Of a stretch of DNA of 64,000 bases, positions 34,234 to 35,595 are shown piece after piece. The notes beneath the pieces were generated by a model. That model ran no database searches and was not told where the DNA came from. It saw nothing but the letters and a program-made list of their open reading frames with translations. Every line of letters starts with the position of its first letter. Positions within the stretch are counted from its first letter, which is position 1. This DNA comes from Bacilli bacterium (GTDB lineage Bacteria > Bacillota_I > Bacilli_A > RF39 > UBA660): the NCBI GenBank assembly GCA_017525035.1, contig JAFXTH010000005.1, positions 25 through 64,024 of the forward strand. The letters are read 5' to 3'. A program made the translations under genes and the position numbers.

Positions 34234-35595
34234 ATGTCACAATATTATACTGAAACATATAAAAATTATTATGATAAGCTAACTGCACACTCTCCAGATA
34301 CTAGTTCTATTGAAGAAAAAATATTAGAGTTAGAAGAAAATGCAAAAAAACTAGAAAGCCATATTAATGCAACAACATGGAAAGAATTAGCAAAAACTGA
34401 AGTGCAAACAAATATTGTCCCAAAGATTAATAGTAGGGTATCAGTATATATCGAAAACATTACGAATAGTTTGCTTCCAGCAGCATATAAAGCAAATAAT
34501 GAATTATATCCATTACTAAAAGATATAAAAGCAAAAGATGAAGAATATAATGCACTACAAAATGAAATAAATGCTAATCTAGAAAATGGTGTTGATACAT
34601 CTTCTTTAAAGTCAAAACAAGAAACACTTGCACAAGAGATGCAATCAATATCTAGTGAAATAAATAAGATAGTAAATGATATCAAAAGCTTAAGTTCAAT
34701 GAAGAACTTAGATGGAAATGCACAAGAAAGTATTTCTAAAACTGTTACATCTAAAGCACCAACGGAAAATGAATACTCACGTATTGAAACATATAACTAC
34801 GATACGACAGTATTTGAAGAAGAAAAAGAAGGTGTTTATGTACCAGAAGCAGCTCTTGGTAGTGATTCTTCAGTTGAAAATAAAGAAAGAAGAATTAGAT
34901 CAAGAAGAAGATTTATTATTGGATCAGATATGGTTGAAGAATTCTTGAAAATCAAGAGAAGATTGGATAGAGAAAAAGGTATACAAGATGAATATGATCC
35001 AGTACCAATTGAAGGTTCAAAAAGCTCATCAAAATTTGATTTTTCAAGCAATAAAAATGTTAAAAAATATACTAAATTTAATAAAAATTGGGTTGTGGTT
35101 GATACAAAATTCGGTATTGATGAATATCAATCATATGCATACTCTAAAGGAATAAGACAAGATAGTAATTCTGCAAGATATGGTGATTTATGTTTAGCAT
35201 TTAGTTATGTACATGCTTCAAACTTAAAAAGCGGTTCTAAAGGTGATAATGCTGAAACTGCATTTAATTGGGGCCATGCAGGAGAATTTAAAGATTATTT
35301 CTCAGATAGTAAGAGTACTACATTAAAAACTATATATAATGAAATTACGAAAGGAAATCCTGTTATATTACAAGTTAATGGTAACCAGCAAGGAACATGT
35401 AGACATTTTGTAACAGTAGTAGGATTTAAAGATACAGTATCATCAGCAAGCCAACTAAAAGAATCTGATTTATTGATTTTAGATAGTTGGGATGGTCAAA
35501 TAGAAACAATGGATAGTAGTAGTTCTAGATTTATGACTACAGGAAGTCAAACAGGTAAGAGTTACAGTGGATACTATCTAAGAATATGTAAATAG
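34234..35595 (+). CDS. Cassette A gene 4: helical LXG-like N-terminal domain plus C-terminal papain-like (C39/CHAP/NlpC-type) Cys-His-Asp domain
   Basis: 453 aa. RBS AAGGAGG. N-terminus YYTETYKNYYDKL...ATTWKELAKTEV. C-terminus GDLCLAFSYV (Cys320), CRHFVTVVGF (His391), LILDSWDG (Asp417/420). Confidence 0.65.
   Translation: MSQYYTETYKNYYDKLTAHSPDTSSIEEKILELEENAKKLESHINATTWKELAKTEVQTNIVPKINSRVSVYIENITNSLLPAAYKANNELYPLLKDIKAKDEEYNALQNEINANLENGVDTSSLKSKQETLAQEMQSISSEINKIVNDIKSLSSMKNLDGNAQESISKTVTSKAPTENEYSRIETYNYDTTVFEEEKEGVYVPEAALGSDSSVENKERRIRSRRRFIIGSDMVEEFLKIKRRLDREKGIQDEYDPVPIEGSKSSSKFDFSSNKNVKKYTKFNKNWVVVDTKFGIDEYQSYAYSKGIRQDSNSARYGDLCLAFSYVHASNLKSGSKGDNAETAFNWGHAGEFKDYFSDSKSTTLKTIYNEITKGNPVILQVNGNQQGTCRHFVTVVGFKDTVSSASQLKESDLLILDSWDGQIETMDSSSSRFMTTGSQTGKSYSGYYLRICK

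What the first reader, a model, noticed from the sequence alone, without database searches (positions are those of the whole stretch)
35086..35595. Conserved papain-like Cys/His/Asp domain at the C-terminus of both cassette gene-4 proteins (second copy about 37800..38375)
Seen in sequence: both proteins align over their last ~170 aa with three invariant blocks.
- G(D/S)(L/E)C(L/M)(A/L)(F/L)S: Cys320 codon 35191..35193; Cys245 codon 37923..37925.
- (C/W)RH(F/L)VTVVGF: His391 codon 35404..35406; His319 codon 38145..38147.
- L(I/V)LD(S/C)(W/V)DG: Asp417/420 and Asp345/348.
Established knowledge: a Cys ... hydrophobic-H-hydrophobic strand ... D order is the signature of papain-fold enzymes. The block GHFVV..G....v.v.DP is typical of peptidase C39-like domains, and CHAP/NlpC-P60 amidases share the fold.
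Inference: the cargo is a peptidase or peptidoglycan amidase rather than one of the nuclease, NADase or lipid-II phosphatase domains usually described on LXG toxins.
Basis: partly seen in the sequence, partly recalled or inferred. Interest (0 to 1): 0.6.

Follow-up and report, generated by a model that had tools for sequence, protein, structure and literature searches.

The report
Secreted papain-fold cell-wall hydrolase cargo
Two neighbouring genes of an uncultured gut Firmicute end in the same cysteine-hydrolase domain (papain fold, Pfam Peptidase_C39_2). The gene neighbourhood points to export by a type VII secretion system, and the domain's partners elsewhere point to peptidoglycan cutting, an enzyme class not yet described for this secretion route.

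Summary
The last ~175 residues of the two gene-4 proteins (34234..35595 and 37191..38375) are homologous: 35% identity over 172 aa, E=2e-25. All cited codons are correct. Cys, Arg-His and Asp are invariant in 122 homologues.

- The domain passes the Pfam Peptidase_C39_2 cut-off (26.3 vs 24 bits).
- It folds with pLDDT 95, with Cys at a helix N-terminus and His and Asp on successive strands.
- The leading structural matches are almost all papain-fold cysteine peptidases, but weakly (best E 4e-3), so no close solved relative exists.

In other organisms the same domain is fused to Sec signals with SH3b domains, and to M23, lysozyme, glucosaminidase, SLT or NlpC/P60 domains. That context favours a peptidoglycan amidase or endopeptidase over a protein-cleaving toxin.

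The carriers are not Pfam LXG proteins. They do sit beside WXG100-type partners in a genome with two EssC genes.

No immunity gene exists here or in syntenic loci. The cassettes evolve far faster than their flanks and are patchy within the family. A third cassette on another contig carries the domain on the other large subunit.

Verdict: a new variant of a known kind, of moderate interest.

The parts
32682..33596 (+). Cassette 1, gene 1: 304-aa helical protein, the 'g1-type' large carrier. It has an N-terminal hairpin, a linker, a middle region and a ~90-aa C-terminal region.
   Evidence: ORF. No Pfam or NCBIfam family. Orthologues at the same position in L004-L007 and L031. Its N-terminal and middle parts are fused directly to the C39-like domain in the contig C6 cassette and in L011-L017.
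33589..33903 (+). Cassette 1, gene 2: WXG100-family small helical protein (104 aa).
   Evidence: Pfam WXG100 E=1.2e-10, 42 bits against a 27.3-bit cut-off. TIGR03930 E=7e-11.
33896..34219 (+). Cassette 1, gene 3: WXG100/YwqH-like small helical protein. The longest ORF starts at 33827. The ATG at 33896 gives the 107-aa length seen in orthologues.
   Evidence: WXG100 E=3e-5, YwqH-like E=5e-5, both below cut-off. Orthologues are 106-108 aa.
34234..35595 (+). Cassette 1, gene 4 (453 aa). N-terminal helical bundle at aa 1-155, disordered linker at about aa 156-277, C-terminal C39-like domain at aa 278-453.
   Evidence: ORF. N-terminal model: helices 7-18, 23-46, 52-117 and 123-152 at pLDDT >90, with the linker below 50. 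C-terminal model pLDDT 95.
35065..35592 (+). Copy 1 of the papain-fold Peptidase_C39_2-like domain. Cys320 = 35191..35193, Arg390-His391 = 35401..35406, Asp417 = 35482..35484, Asp420 = 35491..35493, candidate oxyanion Gln309 = 35158..35160.
35595..36512 (+). Cassette 2, gene 1 (305 aa, g1-type carrier). Its GTG start overlaps the stop of cassette 1 gene 4 by one base.
   Evidence: ORF. 70% identical to its L004 orthologue.
36522..36854 (+). Cassette 2, gene 2: WXG100-like small protein (110 aa).
   Evidence: WXG100 E=1.4e-5, 25.7 bits, just below cut-off.
36835..37170 (+). Cassette 2, gene 3: WXG100/YwqH-like small protein (111 aa).
   Evidence: WXG100 E=1.5e-7, 32 bits against a 27.3-bit cut-off.
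37191..38375 (+). Cassette 2, gene 4 (394 aa): helical N-terminus with a W-x-E-x-G turn, plus the divergent C39-like domain.
   Evidence: ORF. BLASTP against gene 4 of cassette 1. Motif consensus SxWxExG.
37803..38372 (+). Copy 2 of the domain, the 'c2-type' subfamily. Cys245 = 37923..37925, Arg318-His319 = 38142..38147, Asp345 = 38223..38225, Asp348 = 38232..38234.
   Evidence: It gets no Pfam hit of its own and is linked by homology to copy 1.
38376..38542 (+). Gap before infC: no ORF, so no immunity gene. It holds a promoter-like site at 38390..38418 and a terminator-like hairpin at 38528..38554.
   Evidence: The same lack of a downstream gene is seen in syntenic loci L004, L005, L006 and L031.

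Best explanation
Each gene-4 protein is a modular secreted effector with three parts: an N-terminal helical bundle of the WXG100/LXG-like kind, a disordered linker, and a C-terminal papain-fold cysteine hydrolase. The hydrolase belongs to a divergent, uncharacterised branch of Pfam Peptidase_C39_2.

Shown: the fold and the conserved residues. The nucleophile is Cys320 (Cys245 in copy 2). His391 (His319) is the likely general base, always preceded by an invariant Arg. Asp417 (Asp345) is the likely third member. Gln309 is a candidate oxyanion-hole residue.

Inferred from gene context: the protein assembles in the cytoplasm with the two small WXG100-type proteins and the second large helical protein (gene 1). 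The complex is exported by one of the genome's two EssC-type T7SSb machines.

Inferred from domain associations: outside the membrane the domain cleaves an amide bond of peptidoglycan, either MurNAc-L-Ala or a stem-peptide or cross-bridge bond. The same domain elsewhere occupies the slot held by CHAP or NlpC/P60 in multi-domain wall hydrolases.

Inferred role: the substrate is absent from the cytoplasm, so no cytoplasmic immunity protein is needed. Patchy distribution and fast divergence make a lytic effector aimed at neighbouring bacteria the most likely role.
For: Homology and conservation:
- The two copies match at E=2e-25.
- Cys, Arg-His and Asp are invariant in 122 sequences, and in 21 of 21 of the c2 subfamily.

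Family and fold:
- Peptidase_C39_2 scores 26.3 bits against a 24-bit cut-off, and 114 of 117 homologues match.
- The model has pLDDT 95 with papain-like placement of the three residues.
- The leading PDB fold matches are almost all papain-fold cysteine peptidases.
- The best viral match is a 1123-aa protein named 'Lysozyme', probability 1.0.

Cell-wall context:
- Signal peptide + 2x SH3_3 (E=1e-25) + this domain in L021, L022 and L025.
- Peptidase_M23 (E=8e-31) + this domain in 920-1308-aa Saccharibacteria proteins.
- Among 108 representatives: M23 in 5, Phage_lysozyme2 in 2, Glucosaminidase in 2, Phage_lysozyme in 1, SLT in 1, NLPC_P60 in 1, and SH3 domains in 3.
- Explicit architectures: P0183 is lysozyme + domain in 328 aa; P0244 is glucosaminidase + M23 + domain.
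- PMC8223927 classes Peptidase_C39_2 as an enzymatically active endolysin domain found only in phages of Gram-positive hosts.

Export route:
- WXG100 hits lie next door.
- Two EssC genes score 1053 and 907 bits against a 778-bit cut-off, and WXG100 genes flank them.
- The same domain is carried by at least four kinds of WXG/LXG-like N-termini, by Sec signals and by membrane anchors, all of which lead outside the cell.

Immunity and evolution:
- No immunity gene is present here or in L004, L005, L006 or L031.
- Against L004 the cassette proteins are 51-84% identical while InfC, RplT and RpsB are 99%.
- The domain occurs in only 4 of 101 genomes of the family.
Against: - No biochemical data exist for any close relative.
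- There is no sequence-detectable solved structure, and the fold matches are weak (E >= 3.9e-3, TM <= 0.46).
- The three-dimensional proximity of Cys, His and Asp could not be measured.
- No LXG Pfam hit was found, and the N-terminal model matches only generic helical bundles, so T7SS export rests on context.
- The cassettes are not next to either EssC gene.
- Peptidoglycan-targeting effectors of other systems, such as T6SS amidases and TelC, normally have immunity proteins, so their absence here is unexplained.
- Fusion to wall hydrolase domains is guilt by association. The domain could instead cleave a wall-attached protein.
- No PHROG hit, no plasmid match and only one partial, unannotated phage match link this particular subfamily to endolysins.
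Confidence: 0.55

Rival explanations
1. The domain is a true protease toxin or effector. It cleaves a protein: a target-cell cytoplasmic protein after delivery, a surface protein, or a host protein such as an immunoglobulin or mucin.
For: Most PDB fold neighbours are proteases or protein-modifying enzymes: staphopain, IdeS/Mac-1, AvrPphB, Josephin, GtgE and a papain-like toxin/immunity pair. A few homologues weakly match Peptidase_C10, the streptopain family. Zhang et al. 2012 treat Tox-PLC39 as a peptidase toxin domain. A host-directed protease would also explain the missing immunity gene. The organisms are gut MAGs.
Against: A cytoplasm-acting protease would need a cognate immunity protein in the producer, and none exists. 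Recurrent fusion to M23, lysozyme, glucosaminidase, SLT, NlpC/P60 and SH3b domains is the signature of wall hydrolases, not of protein-directed proteases. The fold matches are weak and all papain-like enzymes look alike at this distance.
Confidence: 0.2
2. The enzyme does cut peptidoglycan, but the producer's own. It would locally open or remodel the wall for T7SS assembly and secretion or for cell separation, as EssH does in Staphylococcus aureus and as the lytic enzymes of conjugative type IV systems do. On this reading it is not a weapon.
For: There is no immunity gene. The chromosomal position between spoIIP plus small membrane-protein genes and infC is conserved in several related MAGs. 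Relatives occur fused to T4SS-pilin-like membrane anchors and in M23/glucosaminidase/SLT proteins typical of secretion-associated hydrolases. The T7SS loci here are minimal, and reviews state that how T7SSb substrates cross the wall is an open question.
Against: Divergence is very fast relative to the flanks (51-84% against 99%). There are three paralogous cassettes per genome. The domain is present in only 3 of 100 genera of the family whereas EssC is in 37 of 100, so most T7SS-bearing relatives do without it. An enzyme that must be exported by the T7SS in order to enable the T7SS is circular.
Confidence: 0.17
3. The papain fold is used here for non-hydrolytic or non-peptidase chemistry: transglutaminase or deamidase action, or acyl transfer.
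For: Fold neighbours include the amide-forming CtaG and viral proteins named 'Papain fold toxin 1, glutamine deamidase'. A few homologues weakly match BtrH_N and Amidase_6. The invariant Arg before the catalytic His is not a motif I can assign to a known peptidase family; that judgement rests on my own knowledge.
Against: The best Pfam relationship is to the peptidase-like C39_2 family. The fusion partners are hydrolases of the wall. The matches to the other families are marginal (E about 1e-3).
Confidence: 0.08

Closest known systems
Pfam Peptidase_C39_2 (PF13529), clan CA papain-like. It is listed among the catalytic domains of endolysins of phages infecting Gram-positive bacteria (PMC8223927).
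   Same: Copy 1 scores above the gathering cut-off and 114 of 117 homologues match. The Cys...His...Asp order, the alpha+beta papain fold and the association with cell-wall hydrolase architectures are shared.
   Different: The match is marginal (26 bits) and covers only the His half of the profile. Copy 2 is not detected at all. No PHROG, no plasmid match and only one partial, unannotated phage match tie in this subfamily. Attachment to T7SS-type helical carriers is not described for the family.
LXG polymorphic toxins of T7SSb with Lap/WXG100-like partner proteins, for example TelA-D of Streptococcus intermedius, EsaD/TspA of S. aureus and YwqJ/YxiD of Bacillus subtilis.
   Same: An N-terminal long-helix domain with a turn motif (W-x-E-x-G here), a variable linker and a C-terminal enzymatic cargo. 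Two small WXG100/YwqH-like genes lie immediately upstream. EssC is present in the genome. The cargo is shuffled among different carriers.
   Different: No PF04740 hit and no immunity gene. There is an extra ~300-aa helical partner (gene 1) that can itself carry the cargo. The cargo is the most conserved part and the carrier the fastest-evolving, the reverse of classical polymorphic toxins. The cargo class, a papain-fold wall hydrolase, is not among the characterised LXG activities I found in the reviews searched (NADase, lipid II phosphatase, ADP-ribosyl cyclase/hydrolase); nuclease, pore-former and lipase cargos are added from my own knowledge.
Tox-PLC39 toxin domain of Zhang, de Souza, Anantharaman, Iyer and Aravind 2012 (PMC3482391).
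   Same: A C39-related papain-like C/H/D domain at the C-terminus of secreted multi-domain proteins in Firmicutes and other phyla.
   Different: That paper lists it with T2SS, T6SS and PVC trafficking, not T7SS, and treats it as a peptidase toxin. Identity with that family could not be tested because no profile is available here.
CHAP and NlpC/P60 peptidoglycan amidases and endopeptidases, including the EssH CHAP hydrolase of the S. aureus T7SS locus and the multi-domain hydrolases of Gram-positive conjugation systems.
   Same: The same clan-level fold and triad. The domain sits in the same position in multi-domain enzymes next to M23, glucosaminidase, SLT and lysozyme domains and SH3b wall-binding domains.
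   Different: The window proteins have no sequence match to PF05257 or PF00877. EssH is exported through a Sec signal and is not fused to a WXG-like carrier.

Membership tests
Pfam Peptidase_C39_2 (PF13529) | HMM score at or above the gathering cut-off of 24 bits | tested here: met
   Copy 1 domain alone: 26.3 bits, E=1.3e-5. The full-length protein scores 23.2 bits. 114 of 117 homologues match at E<=0.01. Copy 2 has no hit of its own and belongs only through its homology to copy 1 (E=2e-25).
Pfam Peptidase_C39_2 (PF13529) | Conserved catalytic Cys and His, plus an acidic third residue, in papain order | tested here: met
   Cys320, His391 and Asp417 are invariant in 122 of 122 sequences, and in 21 of 21 of the copy-2 subfamily.
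Papain-like fold (clan CA) | Nucleophile Cys at the N-terminus of a helix packed against a beta-sheet that bears His and Asp/Asn on adjacent strands; structural similarity to known members | tested here: met
   Model pLDDT 95. Cys lies at the start of helix 59-72, His in strand 129-138 and Asp at the end of strand 152-156, in fragment numbering. The leading Foldseek PDB matches are almost all papain-fold enzymes, but weakly so (best E 3.9e-3, TM <= 0.46). Inter-residue distances could not be measured.
LXG toxin (PF04740 N-terminal domain) | Recognisable LXG domain at the N-terminus | tested here: not met
   No PF04740 hit in the two window proteins at E<=1 or in the 117 proteins of alignment A1 at E<=0.01. 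The N-terminal model is a long helical bundle with only generic matches such as BAR domains and PPE15.
LXG toxin / T7SSb substrate module | Adjacent small helical WXG100/Lap-type partner genes, and an EssC ATPase in the genome | tested here: met
   WXG100 scores are above cut-off for cassette 1 gene 2 (42 bits) and cassette 2 gene 3 (32 bits). YwqH-like hits are sub-threshold. Two EssC genes score above the TIGR03928 cut-off.
LXG toxin / polymorphic toxin system | Cognate immunity gene immediately downstream of the toxin gene | tested here: not met
   Gene 4 of cassette 1 overlaps the start of the next cassette. Gene 4 of cassette 2 is followed by 167 nt without an ORF and then by infC. The same holds in L004, L005, L006 and L031.
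Bacteriocin-processing Peptidase_C39 (PF03412) of ABC exporters | PF03412 match and fusion to, or association with, an ABC transporter | tested here: not met
   No PF03412 hit in any scan. There is no ABC transporter fusion and the domain is C-terminal on helical carriers.
CHAP (PF05257) / NlpC-P60 (PF00877) peptidoglycan hydrolases | HMM match to either family | tested here: not met
   The window proteins have no hit. One distant relative, P0196, carries a separate NLPC_P60 domain next to the C39-like domain.
Peptidoglycan hydrolase (functional class) | Demonstrated cleavage of peptidoglycan | not testable with these tools
   The evidence is associative only: fusions to SH3_3, M23, lysozyme, glucosaminidase and SLT domains.
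Tox-PLC39 (Zhang et al. 2012) | Membership of that paper's alignment or profile | not testable with these tools
   Only the description is available: C, H, D; papain-like; T2SS/T6SS/PVC trafficking.

The most novel reading that the evidence does not exclude
These cassettes may encode a previously undescribed type of T7SSb substrate: a four-protein helical complex of two WXG100-like proteins and two different large carriers. Its cargo would be a peptidoglycan-degrading papain-fold enzyme that can sit on either large subunit. In one arrangement the other subunit carries an Ig-like domain that is fused in cis to the enzyme in other bacteria. The complex would work without any immunity protein. 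If so, this would be the first wall-lytic enzyme class delivered by a Gram-positive type VII system. Producers might be protected by their own wall chemistry; a FemAB gene lies beside one EssC gene.
Probability: 0.3. Interest if true: 0.7.

Novelty: new variant of a known kind. Interest (0 to 1): 0.55.

Why it matters
Characterised T7SSb effectors found in the reviews searched are NADases, a lipid II phosphatase and an ADP-ribosyl cyclase/hydrolase; from my own knowledge they also include nucleases, pore formers and lipases. I found no paper describing a wall-hydrolysing cysteine enzyme exported by this route. Recent reviews also call it an open question how T7SSb substrates get through the thick wall.

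A T7SS-linked family of papain-fold wall hydrolases would add a new effector activity. It has about 800 clusters at 50% identity, mostly from uncultured gut bacteria including Saccharibacteria. It could bear on the wall-crossing question and would give a function to a divergent branch of an uncharacterised Pfam family.

The swap of the cargo between two carrier subunits, and the lack of immunity genes, are also useful test cases for how T7SS substrate complexes are built and how producers avoid self-harm.

Tried and rejected
- Sequence searches against all PDB chains found no relative of the domain. This held for the single protein, the full-length profile (only coiled-coil noise from the N-terminus) and the domain-only profile.
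- PHROGs gave no hit for four versions of the domain.
- tblastn against 50,697 phage records gave one partial, unannotated hit. tblastn against 72,556 plasmids gave none. This subfamily is therefore not a common phage or plasmid lysin.
- NCBIfam gave nothing for genes 1 and 4.
- Foldseek of the N-terminal carrier model gave only generic helical bundles and no LXG structure. LXG membership is therefore not claimed.
- An EAD9 hit (E=1.7e-5, residues 94-146) and a DUF6443 hit lie in coiled-coil regions. I treated them as compositional.
- I considered gene 1 as the missing immunity protein and rejected it. Its N-terminal and middle parts are fused to the enzyme itself in the second arrangement, so it is a carrier.
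- I considered that the producer lacks peptidoglycan, because some related MAGs are labelled Tenericutes. I rejected this because spoIIP and gpr lie next to the cassettes and a FemAB gene is present.
- Co-occurrence with EssC across the family is 3 of 4 domain-positive genomes against 38 of 101 overall. That is too few for a test.
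Full report
**Setting**

The window is contig C16, bases 25-64024, of a 1.25-Mb assembly that is 88% complete and about 28% G+C. Related loci come from uncultured ruminant and rabbit gut MAGs labelled Bacilli, Erysipelotrichaceae, Clostridium or Tenericutes.

Between gpr, spoIIP and small membrane-protein genes on one side and infC-rpmI-rplT-rpsB-tsf on the other lie eight co-directional genes. 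They form two diverged copies of a four-gene cassette:
- gene 1, about 305 aa, helical;
- gene 2, about 105 aa;
- gene 3, about 108 aa;
- gene 4, 453 or 394 aa.

**Observation**

The two gene-4 proteins align at 35% identity over 172 residues, E=2e-25. Their N-termini align only weakly (22%, E=2e-6).

A search of 5.8 billion proteins found 136 homologues. In an alignment of 122 sequences:
- Cys320, Arg390, His391 and Asp417 are invariant;
- Asp420 is kept in 121 of 122;
- Tyr298, Gln380, Arg432, Gly374 and Gly437 are also invariant, and Gln309 is kept in 119 of 122.

The second copy belongs to a separate subfamily with 20 representative clusters. Cys, Arg-His and Asp are kept in 21 of 21 of these, counting the window protein, so it is not a decaying duplicate. 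The domain starts a little earlier than stated, at about nt 35065 and 37803.

**What the domain is**

Cut out on its own, copy 1 passes the Pfam Peptidase_C39_2 cut-off (26.3 vs 24 bits), and 114 of 117 homologues match that family at E<=0.01. A few weak matches go to other papain-clan families: Amidase_6, BtrH_N and Peptidase_C10.

AlphaFold2 with a 117-sequence alignment gives pLDDT 95 and pTM 0.91. Cys320 opens a 14-residue helix, His391 starts a long strand, and Asp417 ends the next strand. This is the papain-fold layout.

Foldseek against the PDB returns, at the top, almost only papain-fold cysteine enzymes: Josephin BpJOS, staphopains A and C, CtaG, a CdiA-CT, IdeS/Mac-1, AvrPphB and a papain-like toxin/immunity pair. 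All are weak (best E 3.9e-3, TM <= 0.46). Sequence searches of the PDB find nothing.

The fold assignment is therefore sound, but the domain is far from anything solved. I could not read coordinates to measure the distances within the triad.

**What it acts on**

The strongest evidence is the company the domain keeps. A profile of the domain alone finds 796 clusters (50% identity) at E<=1e-3 and 132 at E<=1e-30. The domain is almost always at the C-terminus. The N-terminal parts are very diverse:
- at least four kinds of WXG/LXG-like helical heads;
- Sec signal peptides;
- two- or three-helix membrane anchors that match T4SS_pilin;
- single-span anchors;
- giant proteins.

All of these lead outside the membrane.

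Pfam scans show these fusions:
- signal peptide + two SH3_3 domains + this domain (L021; E=1e-25);
- Peptidase_M23 + this domain in 920-1308-aa Saccharibacteria proteins (E=8e-31).

Among 108 representatives, M23 occurs in 5, Phage_lysozyme2 in 2, Glucosaminidase in 2, and Phage_lysozyme, SLT and NLPC_P60 in 1 each. SH3 domains occur in 3 and surface Ig-like domains in 13.

Explicit examples are P0183 (328 aa, lysozyme + domain) and P0244 (membrane anchor + glucosaminidase + M23 + domain). These are the architectures of endolysins and of secretion-associated wall hydrolases, and the slot this domain occupies is usually filled by CHAP or NlpC/P60. A published survey classes Peptidase_C39_2 as an enzymatically active endolysin domain exclusive to phages of Gram-positive hosts (PMC8223927).

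I therefore favour a peptidoglycan amidase or endopeptidase. This is an inference from association, not a demonstration.

**Export**

- Gene 2 of cassette 1 and gene 3 of cassette 2 pass the WXG100 cut-off. The other two small genes fall just below it, and both gene-3 proteins also weakly match YwqH-like.
- The gene-4 N-terminus models as a long helical bundle (pLDDT above 90 for residues 1-155) followed by a disordered linker.
- Homologues share an S-x-W-x-E-x-G turn motif.
- No protein matches Pfam LXG, and the fold search is unspecific. I call the carriers LXG-like by context only.
- The genome has two EssC genes above the TIGR03928 cut-off, on contigs C1 and C3.
- Each EssC gene is followed by a small unassigned gene (87 and 94 aa) that gave no Pfam hit, and has a pair of small WXG100-type genes beside it. 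In each pair one member reaches WXG100 at E<=1e-3, and only one of the four is above the cut-off (48.7 bits).

**Cassette logic**

A third cassette lies on contig C6. There the order is gene 2, gene 3, then a 443-aa protein made of the gene-1 N-terminal and middle parts fused to the C39-like domain (51% identical to copy 1). A gene-4-type carrier with a different C-terminal domain follows.

Both arrangements recur in other MAGs. Arrangement A is in L004-L007, L031 and, without recognisable gene 2 and gene 3, in L032. Arrangement B is in L011-L017, always next to a DnaD-like gene and serS. The enzyme can therefore ride on either of the two large subunits.

The C-terminal domain of the C6 partner is homologous (E=8e-10) to a domain that follows the C39-like domain in the same polypeptide in L023. 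This Rosetta-stone link suggests that the two large proteins work together.

**Immunity and evolution**

No gene follows either gene 4. One overlaps the next cassette's start, and the other is followed by 167 nt and then infC. The syntenic loci L004, L005, L006 and L031 also lack one.

Against L004, InfC, RplT and RpsB are 99% identical, but the cassette proteins are only 51-84% identical. The enzyme domain is the best conserved part (79-84%).

Within the GTDB family the domain occurs in 4 of 101 genomes (3 of 100 genera), whereas EssC occurs in 38 of 101.

Fast divergence, paralogy and patchiness fit an accessory conflict function better than housekeeping wall remodelling. The missing immunity gene fits an enzyme whose substrate is absent from the cytoplasm. 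How sister cells would be spared is unknown. A FemAB-family gene (162 bits) sits beside the C3 EssC gene. In the lysostaphin and zoocin systems such enzymes give immunity by changing the cross-bridge; that is my own knowledge and was not tested here.

**Comparison and novelty**

The closest known things are:
- Pfam Peptidase_C39_2, of which this is a marginal member;
- the LXG/Lap modules of T7SSb, which it works like without being a Pfam member and without an immunity gene;
- Tox-PLC39 of Zhang et al. 2012, listed for T2SS, T6SS and PVC but not T7SS;
- CHAP and NlpC-P60 hydrolases, including EssH.

Full-text searches and two recent reviews mention no T7SSb-exported papain-fold wall hydrolase.

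I rate this a new variant of a known kind, interest 0.55.

Noticed in passing
Genome contig C6, 2894..5903 (locus L036); outside the window: A third cassette in a different arrangement. A WXG-like gene (111 aa) and a second WXG-like gene (107 aa) come first. Then comes a 443-aa protein made of the gene-1 N-terminal and middle parts fused to the C39-like domain (51% identical to window copy 1). A gene-4-type carrier with an Ig-like C-terminal domain follows. The same arrangement recurs in L011-L017 next to a DnaD-like gene and serS.
   Followed up: partly
L036 4904..4940 (contig C6): The gene after the C6 enzyme gene seems to start with ATG at 4904 behind a good ribosome-binding site. That frame stops after 11 codons, and the conserved 'YYDxLKG...' reading continues in another frame with no canonical start until 5160. 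This is an assembly indel, a pseudogene or a frameshift at an A/T-rich run.
   Followed up: partly
L036 5400..5900 against L023 8514..9011: The C-terminal domain of the C6 partner protein is homologous (26% identity, E=8e-10) to a domain fused after the C39-like domain within one protein of a 'Tenericutes' MAG. This is a Rosetta-stone hint that the two large cassette proteins act together. Pfam does not recognise the domain.
   Followed up: partly
Genome contigs C1 65143..70890 and C3 3347..10393 (loci L035, L034): Both T7SS loci look minimal: an EssC of about 1530 aa, a small unassigned gene (87 or 94 aa, no Pfam hit) after it, and two small WXG100-type genes. I saw no EssB/EsaA-like genes nearby. 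A FemAB-family gene (162 bits) lies directly after the C3 locus on the opposite strand.
   Followed up: partly
L029 666..8495 and L030 60..8531 (Nanosyncoccaceae / Saccharibacteria MAGs): Pairs of 920-1308-aa membrane-anchored proteins carry Peptidase_M23 followed by the C39-like domain. In L029 a ~200-aa lipoprotein gene separates the two; in L030 a lipoprotein gene and a 445-aa gene do. They look like secretion-associated wall hydrolases of these epibionts.
   Followed up: partly
L018, L019, L020, L024, L026 (rabbit gut Bacilli MAGs), gene directly after priA: Proteins of about 400 aa in which a two- to three-helix membrane N-terminus is fused to the C39-like domain. Some relatives of this N-terminus match Pfam T4SS_pilin. 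The position after priA is conserved.
   Followed up: no
Window 32682..38375 compared with 38597..41087: There is an extreme rate contrast with the closest related MAG (L004). The translation genes are 94-99% identical but the eight cassette proteins only 51-84%. The small WXG-like gene 2 of cassette 1 is the most diverged (51%).
   Followed up: yes
Window 39326..39928 and 40017..41090: Ribosomal proteins L20 (200 aa) and S2 (357 aa) carry long Lys/Ala/Glu-rich C-terminal tails, seen in the ORF translations. The tails are kept in length in L004.
   Followed up: no
Window 31654..32615: Three small membrane-protein genes (100, 112 and 92 aa) lie between spoIIP and cassette 1. The last two are conserved at the same place in L004-L007, and the 112-aa one also in L031 (37-80% identity). 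Their function is unknown and a link to the cassettes is not excluded.
   Followed up: partly
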